From Terriglobia bacterium (GTDB lineage Bacteria > Acidobacteriota > Terriglobia > UBA7540): a stretch of 64,000 nucleotides of DNA. The translations under genes and the position numbers were made by a program. Of the stretch, positions 187-59,761 are shown one piece after another; within the stretch, counting starts at the first letter, position 1; each line of letters opens with the position of its first letter. The notes beneath the pieces are model-generated. The model saw only the letters and a list, made by a program, of their open reading frames with translations, did not search any database and was not told where the DNA came from. Where the stretch lies: contig DASZAI010000048.1 of NCBI GenBank assembly GCA_035945295.1, positions 1-64,000 of the forward strand. Direction: 5' to 3'.

Positions 187-879
187 TCAGGTTTCGCGTG
201 TCTTGACCACGGAGCGGCTCGATTCCAGGCGCTTCTGGAGCACGATCGCTACTGCGACCACGAGCACCACTGCGGCTGCAATCGTCAGCAACCATCCGGA
301 ATGTTGCCCGAGATGCCGCAGGCCGTGTACGAAGCGGCGGCCGTAGTGGAAGGCAATGACGGCGATGGCTCCGTAACGCGCGGCTCGGCCCAAAGTCACG
401 ACCACGATGAATGTCCGCAGGGGATAGTCCAGCACGCCGGCGGCGGCAAAAAACGCGCTCGTCGGGAAGGGCAAAGGTACAGCGGTAGAAACGGCCAGGG
501 CGCCCGCACCCCACCGCTCGAAATACTCCAGTAGCCTCGAGACCCGGCGCGGTCCAAACTTGCTGCTGAGGTAGTCCAAACCGGCCTTACGGGCCATACG
601 AAACGTCAAGTAGGCGCCGAGCACCGAGCCTGCCGTGGCGACGGCGGCGTAGTAGTACCACGGTTCGCGCTGCCGTGCCGCGAGGATGGCGGTGAGAATG
701 TCCGGGCCAGCGAAAGTTGGGATGGGGGTGCTGTCAACCACTGCCAGAACGAACAATCCCATGCCTCCCAGATGCCGCAGGAACGCGCTCATTCCTCGTC
801 CGCGGCGTCGTGCTGCCGGCCGAACTAAGTCCGTAAGCAGCTCAAGGAATCGCATTCGTGCCCGACGTAACGATAGCAC
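187..879 (-). CDS. DedA/YqaA (SNARE-associated) family inner-membrane protein
   Basis: 230-aa ORF with multiple hydrophobic helices and a DedA-like layout (conserved G-rich loop regions); family assigned by recall of sequence pattern only. Confidence 0.55.
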   Translation of the reverse strand: MLSLRRARMRFLELLTDLVRPAARRRGRGMSAFLRHLGGMGLFVLAVVDSTPIPTFAGPDILTAILAARQREPWYYYAAVATAGSVLGAYLTFRMARKAGLDYLSSKFGPRRVSRLLEYFERWGAGALAVSTAVPLPFPTSAFFAAAGVLDYPLRTFIVVVTLGRAARYGAIAVIAFHYGRRFVHGLRHLGQHSGWLLTIAAAVVLVVAVAIVLQKRLESSRSVVKTRET

Positions 880-1091
880 GTTTTAGAGCGGCCCCCGGAG
901 GCGCGTCTGGCAAAGGAAACGAAGTGACAGATAAGGTCCGGAGACTGGCCGTTTAGCGTCTTGGATATTCGGCCGGTTGTCAGGTAGTGTCTTGTAATCA
1001 GAGAGTTACACTTCACGTAACAGCCATCGACCGGTTTGGGACTTTGCAGCGAACGCTGGACAGAGTTTAATCCTCGGAAGAGGTGATGCTT

Positions 1092-1265
1092 ATGAAACAC
1101 GAGGAAACCCATTCCGAGAGGAAGAGGGCTGGTGCGAAGAAGCCTTACGAAACTCCCAAGCTGCTGGAATACGGAGACTTGTCGAAGCTGACACAGGGTG
1201 TTCTGACCGTCGGCGCTGATGTCAGCACGGCCGCTCCGCATTCCAAGAACTCACAGTGCCTGTAG
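1092..1265 (+). CDS. Lasso-peptide (RiPP) precursor; leader ...PYETPKLLEYGDLSKLTQ / core GVLTVGADVSTAAPHSKNSQCL
   Basis: 57-aa ORF (alternative ATGs at 1083/1086). AGAGGTG Shine-Dalgarno 6-7 nt upstream of ATG 1092. Leader matches the lasso consensus YxxPxLx3Gx5TxG exactly (Y-E-T-P-K-L-LEY-G-DLSKL-T-Q-G), with Thr at -2, Gly1 and Asp8 of core (isopeptide ring partner). Confidence 0.55.
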   Translation: MKHEETHSERKRAGAKKPYETPKLLEYGDLSKLTQGVLTVGADVSTAAPHSKNSQCL

Positions 1266-1480
1266 TTTGGGGCAACGTCATAGAGGGGTCTCGCCGTCAT
1301 TGATCCGCAAAGTCAGGTAGACGCTGGTGCGTCTCCGCTCGTCTCGTCAAGGCAGGTCGCGGTCGTGAGCGAGTCAACGTGCTCAGATTCGTTCGTCCAA
1401 TGCGACCGGCCTCCTTGGCTTTCGCGGCCGCAAGCGTGTTAATCTTACCCTAGCAAGTTGCTGAAAAGCGTTTCGGACCC

Positions 1481-1567
1481 TGTCATTCCGAGCGCAGTGA
1501 GGAGTCTCGCTCTGAAAGGAAAGCACTTGCGAGATTCCCCATCGCCTGCGGCTCCTCGAAATGACAG
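1481..1567. repeat. Imperfect inverted-repeat element of the GTCATTCCGAGCGCAG-YGAGGARTCTCGC family (copy 1)
   Basis: tgtcattccgagcgcagtgaggagtctcgc ... gcgagattcccc...ctcgaaatgacag forms a long hairpin; related copies at 44323-44350 and 50303-50367. Confidence 0.5.
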
Positions 1568-1603
1568 CCTGGGCGGTTTTGCGGCAACCTGCCTACAACG
1601 CTT

Positions 1604-2884
1604 GTGGCGACACCTCGGTGTTTGATCATCATCGCGCTCGGTCTGGCTTTTCGTCTTCAAGCGCAGTCGCCGCGCCCTGCGAAGCCGCAGCTTGATCTTC
1701 CGGCGCTCCTGCACACGGCTGAGGACGCGCTCAACCACAAGGATTTCCCCGCCGCCGTCAGCGCGCTCAAGTCCGTCGTCGAACAGCAACCTGATTTCGA
1801 GCCAGCGTGGTTCGACCTGGGCTACGCCTACTCGGGTTTGCATCAGAACGGGGAGGCGGCGAAAGCCTATCAGAAGGCGATTGCGCTCAAGCCTGATGCG
1901 TTCGCGCCGCGACTGAACCTGGGTGTACTGCTGGTCGAAACCAACCAGTCGGCTGCGGCAGTCGAGCAGCTTGCGAAAGCGGTCAAGCTCAAGCCCGACC
2001 ACGCCCGCGCGCACCTTTATTACGGCCGGGCGCTCGCGCTCACGGGTAAGCCTGCCGAGGCGGAAAAGGAGTTCGCGCGAACGCTCGAGCTCGATCCCAA
2101 ATTGGCCATTGCCGAGTTTGATCTCGCACAACTCGAACTTAACCAGAAGCGGTTTGCGGACGCGCGCGCGGCGTTCCAAAAGGCCGCCGGGCTCGACCCG
2201 TCGCTCGCGCAAGCGGAACTGGGGATGGCGCTCGCTTGCGAGGGCTTGAAACAGGAGGGCGAAGCGATCCCGCACTTCGAGAAGTATCTGGCGGCCAAAC
2301 CCGGCGACCTCGAGACGCGGTTTCATCTCGCCAAGCTCTATCTTCAGGCCAACCAGAATCAGAAGGCGCTCGCCAGCCTCGAAACCGTTTATCGCGCCAA
2401 GCCCGATTTGCCTGGACTCGAGGCTGCGCTCGGCGACGTGAACGCGCTGCTCAAGAAGCTTCCGGAGTCCGAGAAATACTACCGGCAGGCGCTCGCGGCG
2501 TCTCCGAGCGAGGCCGACCTGCATCGAGCCCTTGGGCACACGCTGCTCGACGAGGAGAAATATCCGGAGGCCGAAGCCGAGTTTCGCCAGGCGCTGACGC
2601 TTGACCCGCACAACACGGAAGCGGCGAAGGGCCTCGCCTCGACCATCTACCTCGAGAAGCGGTACGCGGAAGCCGTGCCCTTGCTCGAAGCGCTGTTGAA
2701 GTCGCCCCAGCCTCCGGCGGCGTTGTATTTCGTCCTGGCCACCTGCTACGACCACCTGCAGGACAAGCAACAGGCGCTGGCGGACTACGAACAGTTCCTT
2801 CAGCTTTCCCACGGCCAGAACCCCGACCAGGAGTGGCAGGCCACACAGCGCGCCAAACTGCTGCGTCGTGAGCTCCGAAAATAG
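1604..2884 (+). CDS. Secreted TPR-repeat protein
   Basis: N-terminal signal peptide (LIIIALGLAFRLQAQSP), then >8 tandem 34-aa TPR units (repeated A-x-x-Y-x-x-A-L-x-L-x-P patterns); GTG start. Confidence 0.75.
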   Translation: MATPRCLIIIALGLAFRLQAQSPRPAKPQLDLPALLHTAEDALNHKDFPAAVSALKSVVEQQPDFEPAWFDLGYAYSGLHQNGEAAKAYQKAIALKPDAFAPRLNLGVLLVETNQSAAAVEQLAKAVKLKPDHARAHLYYGRALALTGKPAEAEKEFARTLELDPKLAIAEFDLAQLELNQKRFADARAAFQKAAGLDPSLAQAELGMALACEGLKQEGEAIPHFEKYLAAKPGDLETRFHLAKLYLQANQNQKALASLETVYRAKPDLPGLEAALGDVNALLKKLPESEKYYRQALAASPSEADLHRALGHTLLDEEKYPEAEAEFRQALTLDPHNTEAAKGLASTIYLEKRYAEAVPLLEALLKSPQPPAALYFVLATCYDHLQDKQQALADYEQFLQLSHGQNPDQEWQATQRAKLLRRELRK

Positions 2885-16776: not shown

Positions 16777-18132
16777 ATGAAACATCTTTCCAAGGTCGTC
16801 TGGTCGGAGGGCATGTACCTGGGGCCGCATCATTTCCAGGCCCAGGGGCGCTACTTCGAGGACACCGTCCAGTTCGGCATCTCGTCGTTGTGGTTTGAGC
16901 CTTACGGCTTGATCGGCTGTCAGCTCGACGCCGAGGCGCTGCGCAACGGGACCGTCTCGCTCGTCCACGCGCGCGGAGTGTTCCCCGACGGCTTGCCTTT
17001 TCATATGCCGGAGAGCGATCCGTTGCCCGCCGCACGTAACATCGCTGAGCTGTTCCCGCCCACCCACGAGAGTCTAGGCGTGATGCTGGCGATCAGTCCA
17101 CGGGTCGCGGGCGCCGTGAACTGCGTCCTCTCGGAAGCCGAGTCGCACGACAGCGTCCGCTTCATCGCCGAAAACCAGTTGCTGCACGACGACAACACCG
17201 GGGGCGACGAGAAGCCGGTGCGGCTGGGTCGCAAGAACATCCGTCTGCTGCTCGATACCGAGGAGCCCGGCGCGCTCTTGACCCTGCCTTTGGCGCGCGT
17301 CACCCGCGACACCTCCGGCCACTTCATCTATGACGAGCGATTCATCCCGCCCTGCCTTGATATCGCGGCGAGCGATCGCCTCATGATGCTCACGCGGCGG
17401 CTGATCGAGATTCTGGAGGAGAAAAGCGCGACGCTCTCGCGCGCCAATCGCACGCGAAGCGGATTCTCGGGCGGCTTCTCGCCGCAGGAGGTCGCGACCT
17501 TCTGGTATCTGCACTCGATCAACTCGAGCCTCGCGACGCTGCGTCACCTCTATTTCTCGAAGCGCGGTCATCCTGAAGAGTTGTTTGTTGAGTTGCTGCG
17601 CCTGGGAGGCGCGCTGTGCACCTTCAAAGTCGATTCGCATCCCAAGGAGCTGCCGCTCTACGATCACCGGAACCTGGAGAAATGTTTTGAGGCTCTCGAT
17701 GAGCACATTCGCGCCCACCTGGAAGTGATCTTCCCGCAGAACTGTGTGGCCATCCCGCTGCAGGCGGTGGGCAAGTACCTCTACGCGGGTGAGATCACCG
17801 ACCAGCGGTGCCTCGACCGCGCGCGCTGGATTCTGGGCATCCAGTCGCCGGTGGGCGAAGCGGACCTGATCGCGCGGACGGCGCAGCTCGTCAAAGTCTG
17901 CTCGAGCCAGTTCGTTCCCGAACTGGTCAAGCGCGCGCTGCCCGGCCTGACGCTGACGCACCAGCCGGTGCCGCCCTCCGCCGTTTCGCCCCGCGTCGAC
18001 CACCAATATTTCGTCATCAATCGCGCCGGCCCTTGCTGGGACCACATCGTCAAGACGAGGCGCGTGGGTATCTACGTGCCGGGCGAGTTGCCCAACCCGG
18101 AACTGGAGTTGCTGGTTCTCCTCGAAGGCTGA
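16777..18132 (+). CDS. tssK: Type VI secretion baseplate protein TssK (ImpJ/VasE)
   Basis: N-terminus VVWSEGMYLGPHHFQ is the hallmark TssK motif; 451 aa. Confidence 0.9.
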   Translation: MKHLSKVVWSEGMYLGPHHFQAQGRYFEDTVQFGISSLWFEPYGLIGCQLDAEALRNGTVSLVHARGVFPDGLPFHMPESDPLPAARNIAELFPPTHESLGVMLAISPRVAGAVNCVLSEAESHDSVRFIAENQLLHDDNTGGDEKPVRLGRKNIRLLLDTEEPGALLTLPLARVTRDTSGHFIYDERFIPPCLDIAASDRLMMLTRRLIEILEEKSATLSRANRTRSGFSGGFSPQEVATFWYLHSINSSLATLRHLYFSKRGHPEELFVELLRLGGALCTFKVDSHPKELPLYDHRNLEKCFEALDEHIRAHLEVIFPQNCVAIPLQAVGKYLYAGEITDQRCLDRARWILGIQSPVGEADLIARTAQLVKVCSSQFVPELVKRALPGLTLTHQPVPPSAVSPRVDHQYFVINRAGPCWDHIVKTRRVGIYVPGELPNPELELLVLLEG

Positions 18133-18188
18133 TGGTCGCGACGCGCATCACCGCCCCGTCGGTACGGGTCGAGGATTAAGGACAACCT

Positions 18189-18914
18189 ATGGGAACACCA
18201 CCTTCAAGAAGCGTTCAGGCCGAGCCCGCCCCGCGCCGCTCCGACAACCTGGCGCTGGTCTTCCAGGAGCTGTTTACCGTGATCGTGCGGCTGCGCTCGA
18301 ATCGCCAGGCGGTGGCCGATGCCGAAGCGTTTCGCAACGCCATGCGCGGCGCGCTGAAGCGCGCCGAGCAGGACGCGCTGACGCGAGGATACAACTCTGA
18401 CGACGTCCGTCTGGCAGCTTTCGCGCTCGTCGCCTTTCTCGATGAATCCGTGCTCAACTCGCGCAAGCCAGTCTTCGAGGACTGGTCGCGCAAGCCGATG
18501 CAGGAGGAATTGTTCGGCGGGCACATGGCGGGTGAAGTCTTCTTTCAGACGCTCGAGCGGTTGCTCGGGCGGCGCGACTCGCGCGAGCTCGCCGACCTCC
18601 TGGAAGTCTTTGAGCTCTGCCTGCTGCTCGGCTTCAAGGGTCGGTACAGCATTTCCGGGCCCGAGGCGCTGCGCGGCATTCGCGACGCGGTGGCGGAGAA
18701 AATCGGGCGGATCCGTGGACCGCTGGGGCGATTGTCGCCCGGCTGGGCGCCCGACCCGGTGGCGCCCCGCTACACGGACCCCTGGATTCGCAGGCTGCTG
18801 TTTGCCGGAGTCGCGTGTCTGGTGTTGGCCGTGGTGCTCTTTGTCGGCTTCAAGTTTTCGCTCAGCTCGGGAATTTCCGAGCTGCGCGAGATATCCACGC
18901 ACGCGGGCCGCTAG
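18189..18914 (+). CDS. tssL: Type VI secretion membrane protein TssL (DotU/ImpK family)
   Basis: DotU-like cytoplasmic domain (LALVFQELFTVIVRLR...FALVAFLDE...) followed by a single C-terminal TM helix. Confidence 0.85.
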   Translation: MGTPPSRSVQAEPAPRRSDNLALVFQELFTVIVRLRSNRQAVADAEAFRNAMRGALKRAEQDALTRGYNSDDVRLAAFALVAFLDESVLNSRKPVFEDWSRKPMQEELFGGHMAGEVFFQTLERLLGRRDSRELADLLEVFELCLLLGFKGRYSISGPEALRGIRDAVAEKIGRIRGPLGRLSPGWAPDPVAPRYTDPWIRRLLFAGVACLVLAVVLFVGFKFSLSSGISELREISTHAGR

Positions 18915-19032
18915 TGTCGCGTAACTGAGATAAGTAGCGCTGGACCGCCTGCGAAAGGGCGCGCCTTCGGGCGCGCTGAAAGGCGCTGCGAGTGGAGTAC
19001 GGCTTTAGTCGCCGAGGTGTTGGGGGGTTCGA

Positions 19033-22000
19033 GTGAGAGATTGGGAAAATTGGGCGGCGGGTGCGGCGCTGATCATTTGCCTGCTGATCGCGTGGTTCGC
19101 GCCGATCTTGCTGCACCTGACTGGAACCAACCTGTGGATCCTGCGCGGCGGGCTGGCGCTGGTAGCGGTCGCAGCGGTGGGTGCGCTGTGGTGGTGGCTG
19201 CACTCCAAGCGCACCGTGAAGTTGCCCGGGGCCATGCCCGCAGTATCAGCTCCGGCGCTCCCGCGAATGCAAGCGCCCGCGATGCCGGGAATGCAGCCGC
19301 CTGCGGCTGCGGGAGCGGCCATCGCTGTCGGTGGAGCGGCATTCGGAGGCGCGGGAAGCCCACAGGACATCGACGTTCTCATCCGCGAGGCCGAGCGCCG
19401 CCTGAAGACTTCGGAGAAAGTCCACGGCGCGACGTTCCGCAAGCTCCCCGCCGTTTTCCTGGTGGGTGAAGCGGCTTCGGGCAAGACCTCAGTCGTCCTC
19501 AACTCCGGCCTCGATCCCGAGTTGCTCGCGGGGCAAGTGTCTCAGGACGGAGCGACGGTCCCGACGCGCGCCATCAACGCGTGGTTTGCGCGCCAGGCCG
19601 TCTTCGTTGAGGCGGGCAGCGCACTGCTCGCCCAGCCCGCGGTGTGGACGCGCCTCGTGAAGCGGCTCAAGCCTGGCAGCTCGATTCTGAGCAAGGGAGG
19701 ACAGGCGCCGCGGGCGGTGGTGGTCTGCGTCGACTGCGAGACGCTGGCGAAGCCGGGAGGCAGCGAGGCGGTCATGAACACGGCTCGCATTCTCCAGCCG
19801 AGACTGCGCGAATTCGCCGAGCGCCTGGGGATCAACCTGCCGGTCTACGTGCTGTTCTCGAAGCTCGACCGCGTCGCGTTTTTCACCCAGTACGTCGACA
19901 ACCTGAGCCATCAGGAGGTGACGGACGTCCTCGGGGTCACGCTGCCCATTCGACCCCAGGACAACGTGGGCATCTATGCCGAGCAGGAGACCAAGCGCCT
20001 CGCGGCTGCGTTCGACGAACTCTTCTACTCGCTGAGTGACCGGCGCTTGATGTATCTGCCGCGTGAACACGGCGCCGAAAAGCTGCCGGCGATTTACGAA
20101 TTCCCGCGCGAATTCCGCAAACTGCGCAACTCGATCGTGCAGTTCCTGGTGGACCTCTGCCGCCCCAGCCAGTTGCGTACGGGTCCGTTTCTGCGTGGAT
20201 TCTATTTCACCGGGCAGCGCACCGTGGTGGTGGACCGCGTAGTCCAGGCGCAGCCGCAAGCAGGGTTAGGCGGCGTTGCCGGGGCCACGCGCTCCTTCAA
20301 CGTCGGTGAGGTGCAAGGCGGCGCGGCCGCGCTTTCCGGGGATGCCAATGCGACGTTCGTCTTCGACGCGCGGCGCGCCGCGGCCGAAAGCGCGCCAGAG
20401 GCCCTCCGCCCTATCGCTCAGGCCCGCCAGGTCCAGCAGCCGGTCTACCTCAGCCACCTCTTTAATGATGTGGTCCTCTCGGATCGCGCCGCGATGGGCA
20501 CGAGCGGCTCGAGCACCAAAGCAAGCTTCTGGCGGCGGCTGTTGCTCGCGACCGCGATCGTAGTGTTTCTCGTGGCCAGCATCGGATTCCTCGTGTCCTA
20601 CTTCGGCAACCGTGGGCTCGAGGTCCAGGTGGCCAAGGCGGCGCAGGGCTTGGCGCCCTATCCCGAGCTGAGCGGCGCGCAAGTCCCTACCTTTGACGCG
20701 CTTCAGCGCCTGGACGGATTGCGGCAGACGCTGGTCGCACTCCGCGAGCCGCCTCCCTTGCATCTGCGCTGGGGACTCTACGTGGGCGACGACCTCTACA
20801 CGGCGGCGTCCCAGATCTACTTTGCCTGCTTCCGCAAGCTGCTCTTCGCCCAGACTCAGAGCGTCTTGCTCGACTCGCTGCGCCGGTTGCCGGCCACTCC
20901 CGGCCCGCAGGACGATTACAAGTCCGCTTACGACGCGCTGAAAGCGTATCTCATCACCACCTCGAACCACGATAAGAGCACGCGCGAATTCCTCTCGCCC
21001 GAGCTGCTCGCCGTCTGGTCGACGGGACGCGATGCGGGCGAGGACCGCCGCGACCTGGCGCGCCGGCAGTTTGACTTCTACAGTGAGGCGCTCGTCGACG
21101 CGAACCCCTACTCCTCCGCGAACGATGCGCGCACCGTCGCGCAGGCCCGCGCTTATCTCTCGCATTTCGCCGGTACGGAGCGCGTCTATCAGTCGATGCT
21201 GGCCGCGGCCTCCGCCCGCAACAAGCCCATCAACTTCAATCATGACTTCCCCGGCTCGTCGGACGTGGTCATCAACCACGTGGACGTGCCCGGCGCCTTC
21301 ACCAAGGGTGGCTGGACGTTCATGCAGGACGCCATCAAGCATCCCGAGCGATTCTTCAGCGGCGAGGAGTGGGTGCTGGGACCCCAGGTGTCCGCGAACT
21401 TGCCCGATCCCGCGACGCTTTCGCAGACGCTGCGCGCGCGCTATCAGGACGATTTCGTCAAGCAGTGGCGCGCCTACTTGAACGGCACGGCCGTCGTTCA
21501 CTACCAGGGACTCCCCGACGCCGCTCGCAAGCTCACCAAGCTCTCTGGCAATCCTTCGGCGCTGCTGCAAGCTCTCTGCGTCGCCGCCACGAACACCGCC
21601 GTCGACTCTCCCGACGTCGCGCAGATCTTCCAGCCGGCGCAGTTTGTAACACCTCCACCCTGCCAGGAACAGCTCATCAGTCAGGGCAACAAGCCTTACA
21701 TGGACGGCTTGGTAGCGCTTGAAAGCTGCCTCGAGCAGGTGGGGACAGCGCCGCCTGCCGGCAAGGACCAGGCCAAGGCGCAATGCGGTCAGGTGGCGGG
21801 CAACGCCAAGGTCGCGACTCGCCAAGTGGCGCAGGGATTCAAGATCGACCAGCAGCAGCGCATCGACGCGGTCGTGCAGCGGATCATGCTTGATCCCATC
21901 ACCACGGTTGAGGGTTCGCTGATGCCTTCAGGACCGGCGGGCGCGGGTTCAGTGTGCGCGTCGCTGAATAGCCTCGCGCAAAAGGCGCCTTTCCGCTTGA

Positions 22001-22644
22001 ACGCGTCGGACCAGGCGAGCCTTCAGGATATCGAGAATATCTTCCACCCGGGCACCGGGATGCTGTCTTCGTTCTACTCGCAGAACCTCACGAACTTCCT
22101 GACGCTGCAAGGCTCCGAGTACGTGCCCAATCCGACGAGTCCGGTGAAGCTGAATCCCGCCTTCGTCAGCTTCTTCAACCGCGCGATGGCGCTCCAGCAC
22201 GCTCTCTATCCTGGTAATCCGCCGCAGCTCGAGTTCCACTACTCGCTCCGGCCGCGCCCGACGCCGGGAGGCCCGGCGTTCACGCTGACCATGGACGGCC
22301 AGACGCTGAAGTACACGGGTGCGACGGTACAGCCGGCGCAGTTTGTGTGGCCGGGCTCGACGCAGGGCGCGAACCTCAGCGTGGTCATCGGCGGCGCGGA
22401 GGTCACCTTCGCCTCCTACCAGGGTCCGATGAGCGTGTTCCAGTTCTTCGCCAATTCGAAGTGGGCGAAGTCAGGACAGACTTACAGCGTGGAGTGGTCG
22501 GTGCTCGGCTCGTCAGGCCAGCTCGCCCAGCTCAACGGCAAGCCCCTCATCATCACCTTCGACCTCGACACCAAGGGAGCCGACCCGATTTTCCGCCCGG
22601 GCTATTTCTCGAGCCTCGGCTGCGTGTCTAAGGTATCGCAGTGA
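19033..22644 (+). CDS. tssM: Type VI secretion membrane protein TssM (IcmF/ImpL)
   Basis: 1203 aa; N-terminal TM helices; Walker A FLVGEAASGKTSVV; IcmF-related domain; GTG start. Confidence 0.9.
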   Translation: MRDWENWAAGAALIICLLIAWFAPILLHLTGTNLWILRGGLALVAVAAVGALWWWLHSKRTVKLPGAMPAVSAPALPRMQAPAMPGMQPPAAAGAAIAVGGAAFGGAGSPQDIDVLIREAERRLKTSEKVHGATFRKLPAVFLVGEAASGKTSVVLNSGLDPELLAGQVSQDGATVPTRAINAWFARQAVFVEAGSALLAQPAVWTRLVKRLKPGSSILSKGGQAPRAVVVCVDCETLAKPGGSEAVMNTARILQPRLREFAERLGINLPVYVLFSKLDRVAFFTQYVDNLSHQEVTDVLGVTLPIRPQDNVGIYAEQETKRLAAAFDELFYSLSDRRLMYLPREHGAEKLPAIYEFPREFRKLRNSIVQFLVDLCRPSQLRTGPFLRGFYFTGQRTVVVDRVVQAQPQAGLGGVAGATRSFNVGEVQGGAAALSGDANATFVFDARRAAAESAPEALRPIAQARQVQQPVYLSHLFNDVVLSDRAAMGTSGSSTKASFWRRLLLATAIVVFLVASIGFLVSYFGNRGLEVQVAKAAQGLAPYPELSGAQVPTFDALQRLDGLRQTLVALREPPPLHLRWGLYVGDDLYTAASQIYFACFRKLLFAQTQSVLLDSLRRLPATPGPQDDYKSAYDALKAYLITTSNHDKSTREFLSPELLAVWSTGRDAGEDRRDLARRQFDFYSEALVDANPYSSANDARTVAQARAYLSHFAGTERVYQSMLAAASARNKPINFNHDFPGSSDVVINHVDVPGAFTKGGWTFMQDAIKHPERFFSGEEWVLGPQVSANLPDPATLSQTLRARYQDDFVKQWRAYLNGTAVVHYQGLPDAARKLTKLSGNPSALLQALCVAATNTAVDSPDVAQIFQPAQFVTPPPCQEQLISQGNKPYMDGLVALESCLEQVGTAPPAGKDQAKAQCGQVAGNAKVATRQVAQGFKIDQQQRIDAVVQRIMLDPITTVEGSLMPSGPAGAGSVCASLNSLAQKAPFRLNASDQASLQDIENIFHPGTGMLSSFYSQNLTNFLTLQGSEYVPNPTSPVKLNPAFVSFFNRAMALQHALYPGNPPQLEFHYSLRPRPTPGGPAFTLTMDGQTLKYTGATVQPAQFVWPGSTQGANLSVVIGGAEVTFASYQGPMSVFQFFANSKWAKSGQTYSVEWSVLGSSGQLAQLNGKPLIITFDLDTKGADPIFRPGYFSSLGCVSKVSQ

Positions 22645-44454: not shown

Positions 44455-47040
44455 CTAGTTCTGGAACGCCGCCAAATCCGTCAGCCGGGTCGGTTGCAAG
44501 CGCTCAAACTCTTTCTGAGGGACGTTCACGTACTCCCACTTCGTTCCGGTTAGCCCGGTTCCGTTCTCACACCACAGGGCCGCGGCCAGATCTTTCCTCG
44601 CCACTTCGCCAGTTTCAAGACCCTTGGTCTCGAGGAGCCAATGGGTACCCTGTTTGTCCATCGCCACGAAATCCGGGTAGTACGAACGCAGGTTCATCGC
44701 GCCGTCGGTATATTCAATCGAGAACCCAAACGGCTGGGGCAGCTTGGCATAGGCAGTTACGTCGGACGCGTTCTCCAGGAATTTGGCGAACTCACGCTCC
44801 AAAGCGTTATCACAAGGCACTAAATTGAAAACGGTCTTGACGCCTTCCCAAACGGGGCGTGACCACGGGAAGGGCGCGCAGGAGGAAAGCATCCGGCTTG
44901 GCTCCAACAATTGCGGCTCCTGCTCCGCGATGGTGAGTTTCTTTAGCATCTTGGAAAACACATCGACGCAAACGTAGTGTGCGAGCGGCGTGCTCATCGC
45001 CCTTACAGCCGCGGTGTCTGACAAATCGACGATTCTTCCGAATGCCTTCTGCTCGAAGAACTCGCGCACCTTGGGGGCGAGCGCAGCAAACTGCGACGGC
45101 AGCTTTACCGCTTCGGCAATCCGTCGCGAATAGTAACCGATCACTTCCTGAGCCGTCTGCGGCTCCGGGATCGTATAGTCGCGCTCGATTTCCTTCTTGA
45201 GGGTGATGATGTCGTATCCTTCGTACCGGAACGTCTTTGCGTTCGGGTCATCTGCGGTGAAAGGCAGCGGCGCAACCTGGAATGCCAGCACATTGAGGCC
45301 AGCGATCTCTTCCGCCAGCGTCTTCTTGCGCACCAGGGTGGGCGACAGCACGGGCAGCCCTATGTCATAGCCTTTTCGGCTCTCCAGCGGCAGGATCGTT
45401 TCGATGTGCAGCTTATCCTTGCCCAGCTCGAACGTGTCCAGTCGCAGATTCTCCAGCTTCTCGAGGTCATCCACGAAATCCAGAAACTTCTTGTTGCCGA
45501 TGATGTCCACGCGTTCAGTAAAGTTCACCGGCAGGTCGCGGAACATCAGCCGCAGGCCTCGCCCGATGGCCTGTTCGGGCAGGATATTGGCCTTCGCGGT
45601 GTAGGGCCGAAGGCCTACCACAACCGTGACATTCTGAACGTCCCAGCCCTCGCGCAACATCATGACGCTGACGATGGCATTGATCGGGCTCTCCAGCAGG
45701 TCCACTTCGCGAACGGCCTTGCGCGCTTCGTCCAGTTGCTTCTTGCTCACCTCGCCCGACTTGTCAGTATGGATTACTTGAGTCTTCTCTCCGGCGAATT
45801 CAGCCGGGTACTTTTCCCGCAGCCATCCGGCAACGTCGTCGGCCTCGTCTGTATCGTTCATCATCACGAAAAGCACGGCCTTCCGCTTCAGCGGCGAGAG
45901 CTGCTCGCGATACTCCCGCCAGCGCTCGACAGCCGCAGTGAGATAACCCTTGTACCGAACGCTCGCGTAATCGGATTTAGCCTCAACGATGTTGGCGATG
46001 CCCTTCATCGGGCGCTTCACGATGTTGTCAAGGATTGCCTGTTTGAGCGGGTAATCCGAGATGGTCCAGGGGAAAATCGCGCCTTTCTGAAAGCGCGGCG
46101 TGGCGGAGAAGTCGAGCTGCGCGGCGAGCGGCGTCTTGCCGTGCAAATCGCGAATCACCTTGTTCCATTCGTTGGCTTCGTCGTGGGTGTGATGCGCTTC
46201 GTCATTCACTACCAACAGACGCCCGGCTCGAAGCGCGATGCGGTCGCCAAAGTCGGTGAGTTCGAGTTTCTGGGTTGGCGGCTTCGGACCCATGACACCA
46301 GTCATCGGCTCCGGCTCTTCTTGGGCGCTACGGTCGGGCCGTTCATAAAACTGCTGGATGTTGGTCAAGAAGAGCGTTCCTTCGGCGGGCGCCTTTTCTC
46401 CTTCGCCGCGCATCACGCAGTCGAAATCCCAGAAGATTTCGAGTTCCCGTGGAATAACGGGATCGGCTCGGAAGGTCCGGCCTCCGGCGAAATCCGTTTT
46501 CAGGCGCTCCAGGACAATGACGTTGGGCGCGAGAATCAGGAACGTCTTCGCGTAGTCCTTGGCGATCTCTTCCGGCTCCCGCATGGCGTTGAAGAACTGC
46601 CAGGCCACGGCCAGAGACATCACCTTCGTCTTGCCGCTGCCCGTCGCCATTTTGATCGAGTAGCGGGCAAAATCATCGAACGGAGGCAGGCGCACGTCGC
46701 GCAGGTCCTGGGCGTAGCCTTCGAGCATCGCCTTTCGGGTTCGTACCTTCTCAAATTCCCAGACGAAGATCAGGGTCTCGATGGCCTCTTGCTGTGAGGG
46801 GTGATACTTGAACGGAGCACCCGTGGGCAGCTTGTGGTCGGTGTAGAACCAATGGTTAAGCAGGAGCCGTGTGGTTGCCGTGATCCCCTTGTATCCGCCG
46901 GCAACCCAGGCTTTCACCGCCGCGCGCAGGGCGGGCACGCATGGGCCGGTGCGGAGACCGCTGGTGATATCCAGTAGGTCGGCTTGTGCGCTATCGACGC
47001 GTGATTTCTTGCCTCGTGGCATGGCTAGCCTGCCGATCAC
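44455..47040 (-). CDS. res: Type III restriction enzyme Res subunit (DEAD/DEAH helicase-nuclease)
   Basis: 861 aa; helicase motif I MATGSGKTKV, motif II VVNDEAHH, motif VI-like region; lies 3' of a beta-class N6-adenine methyltransferase gene. Confidence 0.8.
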   Translation of the reverse strand: MIGRLAMPRGKKSRVDSAQADLLDITSGLRTGPCVPALRAAVKAWVAGGYKGITATTRLLLNHWFYTDHKLPTGAPFKYHPSQQEAIETLIFVWEFEKVRTRKAMLEGYAQDLRDVRLPPFDDFARYSIKMATGSGKTKVMSLAVAWQFFNAMREPEEIAKDYAKTFLILAPNVIVLERLKTDFAGGRTFRADPVIPRELEIFWDFDCVMRGEGEKAPAEGTLFLTNIQQFYERPDRSAQEEPEPMTGVMGPKPPTQKLELTDFGDRIALRAGRLLVVNDEAHHTHDEANEWNKVIRDLHGKTPLAAQLDFSATPRFQKGAIFPWTISDYPLKQAILDNIVKRPMKGIANIVEAKSDYASVRYKGYLTAAVERWREYREQLSPLKRKAVLFVMMNDTDEADDVAGWLREKYPAEFAGEKTQVIHTDKSGEVSKKQLDEARKAVREVDLLESPINAIVSVMMLREGWDVQNVTVVVGLRPYTAKANILPEQAIGRGLRLMFRDLPVNFTERVDIIGNKKFLDFVDDLEKLENLRLDTFELGKDKLHIETILPLESRKGYDIGLPVLSPTLVRKKTLAEEIAGLNVLAFQVAPLPFTADDPNAKTFRYEGYDIITLKKEIERDYTIPEPQTAQEVIGYYSRRIAEAVKLPSQFAALAPKVREFFEQKAFGRIVDLSDTAAVRAMSTPLAHYVCVDVFSKMLKKLTIAEQEPQLLEPSRMLSSCAPFPWSRPVWEGVKTVFNLVPCDNALEREFAKFLENASDVTAYAKLPQPFGFSIEYTDGAMNLRSYYPDFVAMDKQGTHWLLETKGLETGEVARKDLAAALWCENGTGLTGTKWEYVNVPQKEFERLQPTRLTDLAAFQN

Positions 47041-47043
47041 CCC

Positions 47044-47610
47044 TCACGGCGCCTCGGGGGAGCGAAACCCGATCCTGCGCCGGGGCTTTTCCGGCGGCTT
47101 CATGAGTTCTCGAATCGCATCGAAAACTACTCTGAACTGCGCGTCATACTTCTTCTCCATCTCAGCCAGGCGCCGGGCCAGATCACGGTGCGACGCCAGC
47201 ATTTCCCGCAGCTTGACAAAAGCGCGCATGATGGCGATGTTGACTTGGACAGCGCGGTGGCTGCGGAGCACGCTGGAGAGCATGGCCACGCCTTGCTCGG
47301 TGAAGGCGAGGGGATTATAGCGTCGCCCGCCACGCCCTCCCTTTGAGGTCACAATTTGTGACCTCAAACTTGAGGTGCCAAAATGGAACCTCAAAGCTTC
47401 AAACTCCTTCGCCGTGAGCTGGAACATGAAGTCCCCTGGAAAGCGGGAAAGGTTTCGGCGCACCGCGCGATTGAGGGCTTTTGTTTCCACCTCATACAGC
47501 TCGGCCAAGTCCGCATCGAGCATGACCTTCTGCCCGCGAATCAGCAGAATTCGCCGCTCGATCCGCTCCGGCGGAATAGCGAGATTTGAGGTCGCATTTT
47601 GCGACTTCAA
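47044..47610 (-). CDS. ORF6N-domain (KilA-N-like DNA-binding) protein inserted between mod and res
   Basis: strong match to the ORF6N pattern ([52 protein letters not shown]...[48 protein letters not shown]); only a TTG start is available; contains an internal 27-nt tandem duplication. Confidence 0.65.
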
Positions 47611-47611
47611 G

Positions 47612-49468
47612 TTAGTTGATCTCCACTTCCAGCGTCTTCGTCGTATCGTTCCCCAAAATGTCGACCACCTTCACCACTACCTTGTACGCGCCCGGTTGCG
47701 GGTACTCGTGCTTGGCGGAGAGTGCGATCTTCGGGTCCTTTCGGGTGCGATAGGATTGCCATTGATTGTGAAAGGTGTCGTTCTTAAAGTCCCAATCCAC
47801 CGCCCAGTAATCGATCATCTGGCTCCAATGCTTGATCGCCTTGCGTGCGTCCTCGGGCACGTCATCAAGCGGGATCACAAAATCGGTGAGCTCGAGCGTC
47901 AGCTCGCGCTTCGACACTTTGTGGCCCACCGACAATGCGCCCAGCTCGAAAAACTTGACGTCACCTTGCTCCACCGCCTTCTTCTCCAGCACTTCGCGCG
48001 GAATCTTCTTAAACGCCACGTCGACGCGGGACTCAGTCGCCACCTGGCGCGCCGTTTCGTTCAACTCAAAGGCGAATTCCCAGCCCAGAATGTCGGCGGC
48101 TGCGGTAGCGGCAGCGCCGCCGGCAGCCTTCCAGACTTCGCGGGCAATCGATTTCACATCGGCCAGCGTGACCGGCGCATCCACGGCGCCCACGTGCACC
48201 ATGCGCCCGGATTTCACGCCGTGCAGCCACGTGTGGCCGGTAACCGGCGTGGCGTGGTAAAGGTCGAGAATGAATTTGCGGTAGGCGGCCTCGCGCCCGC
48301 GTTGTTCTGTAGCGCCGCCCTTTAGGGCGGCAGGTGCCGGGCTGAAGCCCGGCGCTACGTCGAATTCCGCCGCCTGCCAAGCCTGGCGCTCGTATTTCCC
48401 CAGGTTTTGCACCACAAACGGCTTGACGCCCGGAATCCCCAGTAGACGCTTGCGCGTGGTGTGAATGGCAAACCGGCCCAGGTCGCAAGCAATCCAGCGG
48501 CGATTGAGTTTTTACGCCACGGCCGCCGTCGTGCCGCTGCCCACAAAGCAGTCGAGGACTATATCGGACTCATTGGTCGGCTCACGGGTAGAAGTCTTGA
48601 TGATCCTGGTAAGGAGCTCCTCAGACTTCTGAGTATCAAAGTAAACCTTCTCAAAATCTGTCGGACTCGTAATCTTCTTAACGTCGGGCCACCAGTCGTT
48701 TACAGGCGTCCCCTCAGATCTGAGTTCAGCATCTGGTCCTTTGACGGCGGTTCGACCTCTTTCCACAGTTCCGGGCGAGTAGGGCCTGTATTGCGGATTG
48801 AACACCCAGCTTGAACCCTTGGTGTACCAAAAGATAGTGTCATGCTTCCTCGGGAATTCGCGTTGCGGAATCCCTCCGCCGCTGTAACACCAGGCGATCT
48901 CATTTCTGAATCCAGGAGAATCCTGCCCGACCAATGCACCGGACCCGAAGACCTCATCGACGACGGCTTTCGCGTAATGACCTACATGCCAGTCTAAATG
49001 AACGTAAATGCTCCCATCCTCAGCTAGCAATTCCCGGAGCAACAGAAGCGTCTCGTAAAACCAAAGCAGATAGGAGTCAAGACCGTGCCCCCAAGTATCG
49101 CGATACGCTTTCTGCTCCAAAATCGAAGGCTCCTTGAGGAAGGCTACTTGCTCTGCGCCCCCCTGAGCCTTGGGGATAATGGCAGTGAACGAAAAATCCG
49201 CGCCAGTGTCAAACGGCGGGTCGATATAAATCAGGTTCACCTTGCCGGCAAATTCGGGCAGCAGAGAAGGCAGGACATACTTCTTGTCGCCCCAGATCAG
49301 CCGGTTGCGCCACTCCGTCTCGCGTCCCGCCGCAAACAGTTCGAGCGTCCGTAGCCGGTCCTGGGCGCTCTCGTTCACCGTCTCGATGGTCTGAAACGGC
49401 AGGGCGACCCGGACCGGGCTTTGCCGCTTCCCGTCAACATACTTGCCATCCCAGATAAGCTCGGTCAT
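47612..49468 (-). pseudogene. mod: Type III R-M Mod (beta-class N6-adenine DNA methyltransferase) interrupted by an in-frame TAA at 48512-48514
   Basis: N-terminal piece 48512..49468 (DPPF motif IV, FVGSGTT motif I). Same frame continues after the TAA as KLNRRWIACDLGRF... through 47612, where the ORF track restarts at a GTG (47612..48415). Likely GAA->TAA. Confidence 0.75.
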
Positions 49469-50302: not shown

Positions 50303-50367
50303 TGCGAGATTCCTCCCTGCGCTCGGAATGACACCGAGGCTCAGGATGACACCCGGACTCGGAATGA
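50303..50367. repeat. GTCATTCCGAGCGCAG-family repeat (copy 3, reverse orientation, plus partial second arm)
   Basis: gcgagattcctccctgcgctcggaatgac ... gacacccggactcggaatgat, ~50 nt 3' of the clpV stop. Confidence 0.5.
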
Positions 50368-50412: not shown

Positions 50413-53250
50413 CTACGCGTATACAAACTGGCCGTTGTCGCCGACGCTGACCTGGATGGTGCTGAGCTTCTCGCCCTCCGCCATGCGGCCGAGGATCTGA
50501 CGCGAAATTTCCGGCAGCAGCGTGTTGGTCAGAATGTTGTCGACGTTGCGCGCTCCGCTTTCCACCTCCGTGCAGCGGTGCGCCACCTCGTCAACCAGGG
50601 CGTCGTCAAACATCAGGTCGATCTTGTGGTTCTCGTGGATGCGGCGCTTGATCTTGCCCAGCTTCAGCCGGATGATCTGCTTCATGGCCTCATCGCGGAT
50701 GGGATAGAACGGGATGATGACCATGCGGCCGAGAAACGCCGGCTTGAAGATTTTGTTGAGCTCGGGCTTCATCGCCTTCACGAGGCCGTCGGGCGTGGGC
50801 GCGGTCTCAGGATCAGCCGTGAGCTTCATCATGGTGTCGGTGCAGGCGTTGGTGGTGAGGATGATGATGGTGTTCTTGAAGTCGATCTCGCGGCCTTCGC
50901 CGTCTTCCATGTGGCCTTTGTCGAAAACCTGGTAGAAGAGTTCGAGCACGTCAGGATGGGCCTTCTCCACTTCGTCGAGCAGCACGACGGCGTAAGGCCG
51001 GCGGCGCACCGCTTCGGTGAGTACGCCACCTTCGCCGTAGCCGACGTATCCGGGCGGGGAACCCTTGAGCGTCGAGACCGTGTGGGCTTCCTGGAATTCC
51101 GACATGTTGATGGCGATCAGATTGTGCTCGCCGCCGTAAAGCAGGTCGGAGAGCGCGAGCGCTGTTTCCGTCTTGCCTACACCGCTAGGCCCAATGAGCA
51201 TGAAGACGCCGATGGGCTTGTTGGGATCGTCGAGGCGGGCGCGCGAGGTCGAGATTCGCTGGCTGATGATTTCGAGGGCGTGCAGTTGCCCGATGACGCG
51301 CTGTCCGAGCAGGGTGGGCAGCTTCAGCACCGTGTCGATTTCATCCTTCATCATCTTGCCGGCCGGGATGCCCGTCCAGGCCGAGATGACTTCACCGACG
51401 ATTTGTCCGTCCACGCAAACGCGCATCAGCGGGGTCTCGCCCTGCAACGTTTCGAGCTCGCGTTCCAACTTGGCCAGTTCGGCGCGCAGCTCTTGGGGAG
51501 TTGCTGCCGGCTGAGGCGCGGTCGCGGTCGCGGCACCTGCCGCGGCGGTGGGATTCTCGCTGGCTACGGTGCTAGCCGCTGCGCCTGTCGTGCCAGCGGC
51601 CGCGACGTCGGAGGTCACGGTGACGCGTCCGCCGTCGCCCGCGTGGCTGGCGGGCGCACCCGCCGTCGCCGCGTGTCCGTCGCCACCCGAGGCCGTCGCG
51701 CTTCCCACGGCCGCTCCGGAAATACTCGCTTCGAGCTGATTGCGCAGCTCGCGCAGGCGTTCTACCAGCCCGCGCTCCTTTTCCCAGCGTTCGGTGAGAC
51801 GCGTGAGACGCTCGCGCGTCTCCACTTTCTGCTTGGCGATTTCCGCCAGCCGCTCGCGGTGGTCCGCGCCTACGGCGGCCTCGCGATTGAGGATGCGCTC
51901 CTGGACTTCGAGGTCGTCGAGCTGACGAGTGGCGTCCTCGATGGCGGGCGGTGTCGCGCTCTGGCCGAGCGCCAGTCGAGCGCACGATGTATCGAGTACG
52001 CTGACCGCCTTATCCGGCAATTGTCGCCCGGCGAGGAAGCGGTGCGAGAGGCGGACACCGGCGTCGACGGCCTCGTCGAGGATGCGCACCTTGTGATGCT
52101 TCTCGAGCGACCCGACGATACCGCGCATCATCACCATGCACTGCGTCTCGGTCGGTTCCTCGACCTTCACCACCTGGAAGCGGCGCGCCAGGGCGGGGTC
52201 CTTCTCAAAGTATTTCTTGTACTCTGACCACGTGGTAGCAGCGATGGTCCTCAGTTCGCCGCGCGCCAACGCCGGCTTCAGCAGGTTCGCCGCATCGTTC
52301 TGACCCGCCTGGCCACCGGCGCCGATCATGGTGTGGGCCTCGTCGATGAACAGGATGATCGGTATGGGCGACGACTTGACCTCCTCGATCAGACCCTTCA
52401 GGCGGTTCTCGAACTCGCCTTTGATACCTGCGCCGGCCTGCAGCAGCGCGAGGTCAAGCGTGCGGACCGTGACGTTGCGAAGCGGCGGCGGAACATCGCC
52501 GTGGGAGACGCGCAGCGCGAAGCCTTCGACAACTGCCGTCTTGCCGACGCCCGCCTCACCGGTGAGGATGGGATTGTTCTGACGACGCCGCATCAGGATG
52601 TCGATCACCTGGCGGATCTCGAAGTCGCGTCCCAGCACCGGATCGATCTTGCCTTGCTTGGCGTTCTCCGTGAGATTGACGGTGAACTGGTCGAGGTTGG
52701 GCGTCTTGCCGCCGGGCCGTGGCGCGCCGGGCGCGGCGGCGGGGCCCGCGGCCTGGGTCGCGGCCGCCAGAGCCTCTTCACTCGACTCCCCGATGATGGT
52801 CAGGAAGTCCTTGCGCAGGGCCTCGGCTTGAATCTTCTGAAACTCGCGGCTGATCTCGCGCGTGAGGCGAGCCAGGTCGTCGTCCGTGACCAGCGCCAGG
52901 ATGGTGAAGCCGCTGCGGACCTGGCCGGCGCCGTAATCAATCGAGCCGATCGTCCAGGCTTGAGTCAGCATCCTGACCAGCGTAGGACTCAGCGCCGGAG
53001 TACGGGCATTCCCGGTCTTGAGTTTGTCGAGGCTGCGCGCGAGTTCGCCGGACAGCCGCGACCGGTCGACGCCGAACTGCTTGGCGATATAGAAAAAATC
53101 GCCGTCCGGCGAGTCGAGCAGCTTCATCAGGAAGTGCTCGACTTCGATATCGTAGTGGGTGCGCGACAAGCAAAGCCCGGCCGCGCCCTCGAGCGCGCCG
53201 CGCGTCGAGTCATTCAACTTGCCGATCAGTGACTTCAGATTTGGACCCAT
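50413..53250 (-). CDS. clpV: Type VI secretion AAA+ ATPase ClpV (TssH) with low-complexity insertion in the middle domain
   Basis: ClpV-type N-domain, two AAA+ modules (Walker [14 protein letters not shown] and [11 protein letters not shown]), ClpB-like M-domain; ATG 53250 with AAGGGAAGG ribosome-binding site. Confidence 0.9.
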
Positions 53251-53263
53251 GGTTTCCTTCCCT

Positions 53264-56590: not shown

Positions 56591-56596
56591 CCTTCA

Positions 56597-58429: not shown

Positions 58430-58434
58430 AGTGG

Positions 58435-59169: not shown

Positions 59170-59178
59170 GGCCGTCCG

Positions 59179-59667: not shown

Positions 59668-59761
59668 GAGAAGATTCCCTCCTTTAGGGATTCTGGGTCA
59701 TTGCCGAAGGCGGGAATCGCCGCTCCGTCCCAGCCCTCGGCGTCAGTCTGAACCATCAAAC

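What the first reader, a model, noticed from the sequence alone, without database searches (positions are those of the whole stretch)
1083..1265. Orphan lasso-peptide precursor with a textbook leader motif and no biosynthetic genes in sight
The 57-aa ORF matches every position of the lasso leader consensus YxxPxLx3Gx5TxG (YETPKLLEYGDLSKLTQ|G), with Thr at -2. The predicted core GVLTVGADVSTAAPHSKNSQCL has Gly1 and Asp8, which would give an 8-residue macrolactam ring, plus bulky His/Lys plug candidates in the tail. No B (transglutaminase-like protease/RRE), C (Asn-synthetase-like cyclase) or D (ABC exporter) gene lies within 10 kb. The neighbours are a DedA membrane protein and a TPR protein. 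This could be a distantly encoded precursor, a remnant, or a precursor processed by a cluster elsewhere.
Basis: partly seen in the sequence, partly recalled or inferred. Interest (0 to 1): 0.6.

Follow-up and report, generated by a model that had tools for sequence, protein, structure and literature searches.

The report
Stand-alone second-copy lasso peptide precursor gene
This small gene is a real lasso-peptide precursor: it is a conserved extra copy kept away from its processing enzymes, which almost certainly sit, with their own precursor copy, on another contig of the same Terriglobia genome.

Summary
The ORF is real. It is 57 aa from ATG 1092 to the stop at 1265; the quoted start, 1083, is an in-frame upstream GTG. 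It scores 26.3 bits against NCBIfam lasso_leader_L3 (cutoff 19), and GenBank already names it a lasso leader-containing protein of a Terriglobia MAG. None of the 48 ORFs I scanned with Pfam across the 64 kb is a lasso B1, B2 or C gene. The window shows only 1.1 kb upstream of the ORF.

Relatives settle its identity. Homologs 72-75% identical lie directly after PqqD, lasso B2 and lasso cyclase genes. An 82% identical ortholog in another organism has the same DedA/TPR "orphan" context. The gene is under purifying selection (dN/dS 0.18-0.33 against the ortholog, 0.06-0.11 against in-cluster copies). Its leader motif, Thr(-2), Gly1 and Asp8 are invariant across the family.

The cluster-bearing contig comes from the same sequencing run as the window. 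Its cyclase and precursor have GenBank protein accessions only about 2,170 away from this peptide's.

Best reading: this is an old, dispersed paralogous precursor processed in trans by a cluster elsewhere in the genome, giving a three-residue variant of the cluster's own lasso peptide. It is a new member of a known kind and of modest interest.

The parts
1092..1265 (+). Lasso-peptide precursor gene (57 aa plus stop). It is the 'orphan' paralog of the in-cluster precursor.
   Evidence: ORF. NF033521 lasso_leader_L3 scores 26.3 bits against cutoff 19. It is identical to GenBank HEV2493939.1, 'lasso RiPP family leader peptide-containing protein'. dN/dS is 0.18-0.33 against ortholog L008 and 0.06-0.11 against cluster copies.
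1092..1196 (+). Leader peptide, residues 1-35. It has a variable N-terminus, then KKPYETPKLLEYGDLSKLTQ with the YxxPxL recognition motif and Thr at -2.
   Evidence: Y19, P22, L24, G28, T34 and Q35 are invariant in the six-sequence alignment. The two further JGI copies keep them too. The roles of the motif and of Thr(-2) follow published work (PMC10368454).
1197..1262 (+). Predicted core peptide GVLTVGADVSTAAPHSKNSQCL (22 aa). The predicted isopeptide ring is Gly1-Asp8 with a 14-residue tail and a single Cys at position 21.
   Evidence: G1, L3-D8, S10, T11, P14, H15, K17, N18, C21 and L22 are invariant in the alignment. Ring formation itself is inferred, not shown.
1080..1085 (+). Shine-Dalgarno-like GAGGTG, 6 nt before ATG 1092.
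   Evidence: Read from the sequence. It is conserved in L008 and L002 (GAGGTG), and the cluster copies have GGGAGG.
1043..1071 (+). Candidate sigma-70-like promoter: -35 TTTGCA (1043-1048), 17-nt spacer, -10 TTTAAT (1066-1071). This is inferred only.
   Evidence: It aligns with TTGACA/TCTAAT in L002 and TTGAAT/TAAAAT in the in-cluster copies. A block conserved with L008 covers 1026-1052. The consensus scan itself reported no promoter.
187..879 (-). Divergent upstream neighbour, a VTT/DedA-family membrane protein. It is context, not part of the system.
   Evidence: Pfam VTT_dom, E = 6.7e-10. It is 84% identical to the L008 neighbour.
1604..2884 (+). Downstream neighbour, a TPR-repeat protein with a hydrophobic, signal-peptide-like N-terminus. 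It is context, not part of the system.
   Evidence: Pfam TPR families. It is 87% identical to the L008 neighbour.
1454..1596 (.). 143-bp insertion between the precursor gene and the TPR gene. It is absent from the orthologous locus and looks like a small repeat element.
   Evidence: The window/L008 alignment breaks at 1453/1597. Partial copies lie at window 50304-50333 and L008 1036-1074. There is no Rfam match.

Best explanation
The gene encodes a functional lasso-peptide precursor. It is an old paralog of the precursor that sits inside a B1(PqqD)-B2-C lasso cluster elsewhere in the same Terriglobia genome.

The proposed mechanism has five steps, all inferred from family knowledge:
1. The peptide is transcribed from its own promoter and translated.
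2. Its conserved YxxPxL leader motif is bound by the cluster's PqqD-like RiPP recognition protein.
3. The B2 transglutaminase-like protease cuts after Gln35, guided by Thr(-2).
4. The Asn-synthetase-like cyclase activates the Asp8 side chain and joins it to the Gly1 amine around the tail. This gives an 8-residue-ring lasso.
5. The methyltransferase, kinase-like and glycosyltransferase genes of the cluster may then tailor it, and an ABC system may export it.

The product would differ from the cluster's own peptide at three core positions (A12S, A13G, S16G), so the genome would make two congeners.

Shown here: family membership of the leader, purifying selection, synteny of the orphan context in a second organism, the in-cluster location of paralogs, and the presence of the cluster in the same sequencing run.

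Inferred: same genome, processing in trans, ring position, and expression.
For: - **Leader HMM.** The hit is above the curated cutoff.
- **In-cluster homologs.** They lie 43 bp after the cyclase gene in L001, L012-15, L020-22 and L025. In L001 the B2 protein scores 88 bits against a cutoff of 33. The cyclase scores 531 bits on NF033535 against a cutoff of 525.
- **Conserved orphan context.** L008-L011 show the same DedA/precursor/TPR/390-aa arrangement in another organism. The peptide is 82% identical and the flanking proteins 84-87% identical.
- **Selection.** dN/dS is 0.33 over the full gene and 0.18 from the KK motif onward against the ortholog. It is 0.06-0.11 against cluster copies, with dS of 1.4-2.0, so the duplication is old and the copy has been maintained.
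- **Clades.** Orphan copies share KK[PS]YE[TR]P and cluster copies share KKAYEAP.
- **Same genome, accessions.** The peptide is HEV2493939.1. The in-cluster precursor is HEV2491771.1 and the cyclase HEV2491770.1. All are 'MAG TPA Terriglobia bacterium'.
- **Same genome, sequencing run.** A 3,856-bp stretch of the window is 100% identical to a Logan contig of run SRR12347823, the run that yielded cluster contig L001.
- **Same genome, composition.** The tetranucleotide correlation between window and L001 is 0.985, against 0.989-0.991 for thirds of the window compared with the whole.
- **Same genome, divergence.** dS between window and L008 is 0.32, and dS between L001 and L020 is also 0.32.
- **Co-occurrence elsewhere.** Orphan and cluster copies recur together in the SRR280004xx runs and in JGI metagenome Ga0070732.
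Against: - Same-genome status is not proven. Accession proximity (2,168 apart) could straddle two MAGs submitted together. The window's assembly was in neither the GTDB representative set nor most of the gene-position index.
- There are no expression data. The consensus scans found no promoter and no terminator, and the downstream hairpins fold no better than shuffled sequence.
- The part of the 98-kb contig outside the window was not seen, including everything upstream of the window start.
- No chemistry was done: the ring, the threading and any trans-processing are untested.
- My searches of the paper library found no explicit precedent for a remote lasso precursor.
Confidence: 0.68

Rival explanations
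1. It is a decaying remnant: a duplicated precursor gene that is no longer expressed or processed and is merely not yet degraded.
For: No biosynthetic gene lies in the 64 kb. No consensus promoter or terminator was found. A small repeat element has inserted just downstream.
Against: - The ORF, the RBS and all recognition and ring residues are intact in four different genomic contexts.
- dN/dS is well below 1: 0.18-0.33 against the ortholog and 0.06-0.11 against paralogs, with saturated dS.
- The same context is kept in a second organism whose flanking proteins are 13-16% diverged.
Confidence: 0.1
2. It is a genuine orphan: the organism has no cognate cluster. The peptide is either processed by a different, unrelated lasso system or acts unmodified, and the L001 cluster belongs to a co-occurring relative.
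For: Same-genome status rests on indirect evidence. Some metagenomes yielded only one of the two kinds of copy: L024 from Ga0070733 is orphan only, and L025 from Ga0209167 is cluster only.
Against: - The family is very rare: 6 clusters at 90% identity among 5.8 billion proteins. Even so, cluster and orphan copies co-occur in three independent data sets.
- Divergence of orphan and cluster loci between the two sample sets is congruent: dS is 0.32 for both, and protein identity is 79-91%.
- Strict conservation of the leader recognition motif makes sense only if a cognate B1/B2 is present.
Confidence: 0.15
3. The biosynthetic genes lie just upstream, beyond the window's left edge, so the gene is not really orphan.
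For: Only 1,091 bp upstream of the ORF are visible. The source contig is 98 kb, against the 64-kb window.
Against: - The immediate upstream gene is a divergently transcribed DedA-family gene.
- The orthologous locus L008 shows NYN, two unknown genes and DedA over 4 kb upstream, with no match to the cluster proteins.
- In every clustered copy the precursor starts 43 bp after the cyclase gene.
- The cyclase with the nearby accession lies on a different contig of 153,941 bp.
Confidence: 0.05
4. It is a chance ORF that happens to match a short motif.
For: The HMM match covers only 18 residues.
Against: - The motif is expected about 0.003-0.013 times per window.
- Seven further full-length copies with synonymous-dominated divergence were found.
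- Several of those homologs are adjacent to lasso enzymes.
Confidence: 0.01

Closest known systems
Canonical split-B lasso peptide gene clusters (A, B1/PqqD-like RRE, B2 transglutaminase-like protease, C Asn-synthetase-like cyclase), including kinase-containing ones such as the paeninodin and BsfA types (PMC10368454)
   Same: The leader carries YxxPxL and Thr(-2). The core has Gly1 and an acidic residue at position 8. Homologs in relatives sit beside B1, B2 and C genes that pass or approach NCBIfam lasso models. A weak HprK-related kinase lies in the cluster.
   Different: In the window the precursor stands alone between a DedA-family gene and a TPR gene, with no enzyme gene in 63 kb downstream. 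In the related clusters the order is B1-B2-C-A, followed by a PrmA/PRMT_C-type methyltransferase and a PMT_2 glycosyltransferase. I know of no characterised lasso pathway with that combination (from memory, not tested).
Multi-precursor lasso clusters, such as caulosegnins I-III and sphingonodin/sphingopyxin pairs (from my own knowledge; Hegemann et al. 2013, listed in PMC7549694 tables)
   Same: One enzyme set would serve several precursor paralogs that share a leader and differ at a few core positions, giving congeners.
   Different: In those systems the precursor genes are tandem inside the cluster. Here the extra copy is on another contig, has its own upstream region, and is conserved in that remote position across species.
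Dispersed precursor genes of other RiPP classes, such as the prochlorosin ProcA genes scattered around Prochlorococcus genomes and processed by a single ProcM (from my own knowledge)
   Same: Leader-conserved precursor genes are encoded far from the modifying enzyme and are presumably processed in trans.
   Different: The RiPP class and enzymology differ. Only 2 copies are inferred per genome here, possibly 3, rather than dozens. The core is nearly invariant here rather than hypervariable.

Membership tests
Lasso peptide precursor (NCBIfam NF033521 lasso_leader_L3) | Profile score above the curated cutoff | tested here: met
   26.3 bits against cutoff 19, E = 4.9e-6. The in-cluster homolog scores 28.0 bits.
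Lasso peptide precursor | Leader recognition motif YxxPxL and Thr at the penultimate leader position | tested here: met
   Y19, P22, L24 and T34 are present and invariant in the six-sequence alignment. The two further copies keep them. Their roles are described in PMC10368454.
Lasso peptide precursor | Core starts with Gly (or Cys, Ser or Ala) and has Asp or Glu at position 7-9 for the macrolactam | tested here: met
   G36 is core position 1 and D43 is core position 8. Both are invariant in the homologs.
Lasso peptide precursor | Encoded next to B (or B1 plus B2) and C genes | tested here: not met
   There is no PqqD, Transglut_core3 or Asn_synthase in the window (tblastn; Pfam). The feature is met for paralogs and orthologs in L001, L012-15, L020-22 and L025.
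Lasso peptide precursor | A cognate B1/B2/C set is present in the same genome | tested here: inconclusive
   GenBank accessions are 2,168 apart. The sequencing run is the same, SRR12347823. Composition is congruent (r = 0.985) and so is divergence. The assembly itself could not be read.
Lasso peptide (mature product) | Leader removed, isopeptide ring formed (-18 Da), tail threaded through the ring | not testable with these tools
   This needs heterologous expression with MS/MS and NMR, or protease and heat stability tests.
Trans-encoded (dispersed) RiPP precursor | A remote copy is kept under purifying selection with an intact leader | tested here: met
   dN/dS is 0.18-0.33 against the syntenic ortholog and 0.06-0.11 against cluster copies. 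The orphan synteny is conserved in L008-L011.
Trans-encoded (dispersed) RiPP precursor | The remote copy is actually expressed and processed | not testable with these tools
   Only a weak promoter-like alignment was found, and the scan was negative.

The most novel reading that the evidence does not exclude
This Terriglobia lineage keeps a dispersed set of lasso precursor genes. At least four distinct genomic contexts were seen: in-cluster, DedA/TPR, next to a 659-aa unknown protein, and L023. Each has its own upstream region, and all would be served in trans by one B1/B2/C set. That would be a 'one enzyme set, scattered substrates' layout not yet described for lasso peptides. Adjacency-based genome mining would systematically miss it.
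Probability: 0.35. Interest if true: 0.5.

Novelty: new member of a known kind. Interest (0 to 1): 0.3.

Why it matters
Lasso peptides are usually mined by looking for a small ORF next to B and C genes. This is a well-supported case in which a second precursor is conserved far from its enzymes, in the same remote position in two organisms. Such mining would therefore under-count products. The "orphan" leader-containing ORFs that PGAP annotates can be real substrates rather than noise.

It also points to an uncharacterised acidobacterial lasso family. That family has an invariant 22-residue core and an unusual set of candidate tailoring genes: a PRMT-like methyltransferase, an HprK-like kinase and a PMT_2 glycosyltransferase. 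The biology itself is an expected extension of known RiPP logic, not a new mechanism.

Tried and rejected
- **Exact-product look-ups.** The peptide, the TPR protein and the DedA protein were not on record, so I could not fetch the contig upstream of the window. The rubrerythrin look-up returned only a 2.2-kb ENA contig.
- **GTDB representative genomes.** The scan did not contain the window's genome and gave only leader-only matches to other lasso families (L016-L019).
- **Signal scans.** The promoter/terminator consensus scan found nothing. Folds downstream of the stop codon were no better than shuffles (z = -1.1 to +0.3). Rfam found nothing in 860-1650.
- **Pfam on the peptide.** No family matched.
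- **Literature.** Searches for remote or orphan lasso precursors and for the core sequence found no direct precedent and no prior description.
- **Rejected: chance ORF**.
- **Rejected: fragment of a larger protein.** All homologs are 51-57 aa with their own start and stop.
- **Rejected: functional link to the DedA/TPR neighbours.** Other orphan copies (L002, L023) have different neighbours.

Full report
**1. The observation**

The region 1083-1265 holds an ORF on the + strand. From the GTG at 1083 it reads 60 aa. All homologs start MKH/MKR, and GenBank also calls the protein 57 aa, so 1092-1265 is the gene.

The leader motif is fully present: Y19-x2-P22-x-L24-x3-G28-x5-T34-x-G36. The predicted core GVLTVGADVSTAAPHSKNSQCL has Gly1 and Asp8. 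This exact motif occurs once in the six-frame translation of the window. About 0.003 occurrences are expected from composition, and 300 shuffles gave 4 hits in total.

An independent profile test also passes. NCBIfam NF033521 (lasso_leader_L3) scores 26.3 bits against a curated cutoff of 19. Pfam has no model for it. The identical protein is already in GenBank as HEV2493939.1, 'lasso RiPP family leader peptide-containing protein', from a Terriglobia MAG contig of 98,336 bp.

**2. The surroundings**

- The upstream neighbour (187-879, minus strand) is a VTT/DedA-family protein.
- The downstream neighbour (1604-2884) is a TPR protein.
- After these come an unknown 390-aa protein, a SprT-like protein, a rubrerythrin-VIT1 fusion, an amidohydrolase and UvrC.

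I scanned 48 plausible genes across the 64 kb with Pfam. I also ran the proteins of a related lasso cluster against the window with tblastn. Neither search found a PqqD, Transglut_core3 or Asn_synthase gene; only the precursor itself matched. The window does contain an FtsX/MacB permease (33.5-36.0 kb) and a HlyD protein (42.7 kb). They are far away and are not of the type found in the related clusters.

The window shows only 1,091 bp upstream of the gene, so 'nothing within 10 kb' can be verified here on the downstream side only.

**3. Relatives**

A search of 5.8 billion proteins found only five other 90%-identity clusters, at 70-82% identity. The JGI scan added two more copies. In the six-sequence alignment the second half of the leader and almost the whole core are invariant: KK-Y-E-P-L-EYG-LSKLTQ | G-LTVGAD-ST-PH-KN-CL.

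The copies fall into distinct contexts.

(a) In-cluster copies are L001, L012-15 (L026 is the same contig as L012), L020-22 and L025.
- Where enough flank is available (L001, L020-22, L025), the gene order is ABC ATPase, a 556/558-aa protein with no family match, PqqD, Transglut_core3, Asn_synthase, then the precursor 43 bp later.
- Downstream follow a PrmA/PRMT_C methyltransferase, a 311/312-aa protein with weak HprK-kinase similarity, and a PMT_2 glycosyltransferase.
- In L001 the B2 protein scores 88 bits on the lasso B2 model (cutoff 33). The cyclase scores 531 bits on the lasso isopeptide cyclase model NF033535 (cutoff 525). The PqqD protein matches lasso PqqD models below their cutoffs.
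- The family is therefore a genuine lasso precursor family.

(b) L008-L011 have the same orphan context as the window: DedA (minus strand), precursor, 426-aa TPR protein, 387-aa protein. The peptide is 82% identical and the flanking proteins 84-87% identical. The 4 kb upstream in L008 has no lasso genes.

(c) Two further orphan contexts exist. In L002-7 the precursor lies beside a 659-aa protein with no family match. L023 is another. In L002, homology to the window is limited to the gene plus about 30 bp upstream.

**4. Is the orphan copy maintained?**

Nei-Gojobori counts give the following.

| Comparison | dS | dN/dS |
|---|---|---|
| Window vs syntenic ortholog L008, full gene | 0.32 | 0.33 |
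| Window vs L008, from the KK motif onward | 0.31 | 0.18 |
| Window vs in-cluster copies | 1.4-2.0 | 0.06-0.11 |

Orphan copies share KK[PS]YE[TR]P and cluster copies share KKAYEAP, so the sequences group by context rather than by sample. The duplication is therefore old. The remote copy has been kept under purifying selection with every recognition and ring residue intact. This argues against a remnant.

**5. Where are the enzymes?**

Four indirect lines place the L001 cluster in the same genome as the window.

- **Accessions.** The in-cluster precursor and its cyclase are GenBank HEV2491771.1 and HEV2491770.1, on a 153,941-bp contig. These are only about 2,170 accessions from the window peptide, HEV2493939.1. 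All are labelled 'MAG TPA Terriglobia bacterium'.
- **Sequencing run.** A 3,856-bp stretch of the window (56179-60034) is 100% identical to a Logan contig of run SRR12347823, the run that yielded L001.
- **Composition.** The tetranucleotide correlation between window and L001 is 0.985. Thirds of the window score 0.989-0.991 against the whole window, and unrelated loci score 0.68-0.93.
- **Divergence.** Divergence of the orphan locus between the two sample sets equals that of the cluster locus: dS is 0.32 in both, and protein identities are 84-87% and 79-91%.

The pairing of orphan and cluster copies also recurs in the SRR280004xx runs and in JGI metagenome Ga0070732.

None of this proves a single genome. 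I put that at about 0.8.

**6. Mechanism (inferred from established lasso biochemistry; motif roles as in PMC10368454)**

1. The precursor is made from its own transcription unit.
2. The PqqD-like B1 protein binds the YxxPxL leader.
3. B2 cuts after Gln35, with Thr(-2) as the recognition residue.
4. The cyclase joins the Asp8 side chain to the Gly1 amine around the 14-residue tail.

The cluster's methyltransferase, kinase-like and glycosyltransferase genes may tailor the peptide. Candidate target residues (S10, T11, H15, K17, C21) are invariant in orphan and cluster copies alike.

The window peptide differs from its presumed in-genome partner at core positions 12, 13 and 16, so two congeners would result.

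A candidate promoter (-35 TTTGCA at 1043-1048, -10 TTTAAT at 1066-1071) aligns with better hexamers in the other copies. The consensus scan found no promoter or terminator, the downstream hairpins are not significant, and Rfam finds nothing. Expression remains untested.

**7. Comparison with what is known, and verdict**

The gene meets the sequence-level criteria of a lasso precursor. It fails only the adjacency criterion, which its paralogs meet.

The closest analogues are:
- split-B lasso clusters;
- multi-precursor lasso clusters, where the copies are tandem;
- dispersed precursor sets of other RiPP classes such as prochlorosins (the last two from my own knowledge).

Searches of the paper library found no description of this core sequence and no explicit report of remote lasso precursors. 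That library is incomplete.

The gene's identity is already in the public annotation. What is added here is that the 'orphan' is a conserved, selected, trans-encoded second copy with a probable cognate cluster elsewhere in the genome. I rate it a new member of a known kind and of modest interest (0.3).

Noticed in passing
window 1454-1596: This is a 143-bp insertion relative to the orthologous locus L008. Its ends are inverted-repeat-like (GTCATTCCGAGCG...CGAAATGACAG). Partial copies lie at window 50304-50333 (minus strand) and L008 1036-1074. It looks like a small MITE/REP-type repeat and has no Rfam match.
   Followed up: partly
window 16777-22644 and 50413-63899: Type VI secretion genes lie in two separated blocks. 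The first holds TssK, DotU/TssL and TssM. The second, on the minus strand, holds ClpV, TssG, TssF, gp25/TssE, TssA, ImpE, Hcp, TssC and TssB.
   Followed up: no
window 62127-63899 (-): A 590-aa ORF matches both VipA/TssB (residues 96-193) and the VipB/TssC N-terminal domain (residues 283-578). It appears to be a TssB-TssC sheath fusion paralog, next to the separate TssB and TssC genes.
   Followed up: no
window 44455-49468 (-): This is a type III restriction-modification-like block. It has an 861-aa ResIII helicase with an endonuclease domain, an ORF6N-domain protein, a small protein with a weak PKD match, and an N6/N4 DNA methylase.
   Followed up: no
L001 8998-12553; also L020 12236-15798 and L025 6258-9824: In relatives the lasso cluster continues past the precursor. 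It has a PrmA/PRMT_C-type methyltransferase (387 aa), a 311/312-aa protein with weak HprK-related kinase similarity, and a PMT_2 glycosyltransferase. The core has no Arg, so the methyltransferase target is unclear. I did not recognise this tailoring set from characterised lasso pathways.
   Followed up: partly
L002 483-686 (with L003-L007): A third orphan copy of the precursor shares homology with the window only over the gene plus about 30 bp upstream. It sits in DNA of lower GC (57%) and different tetranucleotide composition (r = 0.875). Three of the six contigs (L002-L004) place the gene at exactly the same distance, 512 bp, from a contig end.
   Followed up: no
window 1026-1052: A 27-nt block upstream of the precursor (CATCGACCGGTTTGGGACTTTGCAGCG) is perfectly conserved with L008. 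The surrounding intergenic DNA is only about 79% identical. It overlaps the candidate -35 element and could be a regulator binding site.
   Followed up: no
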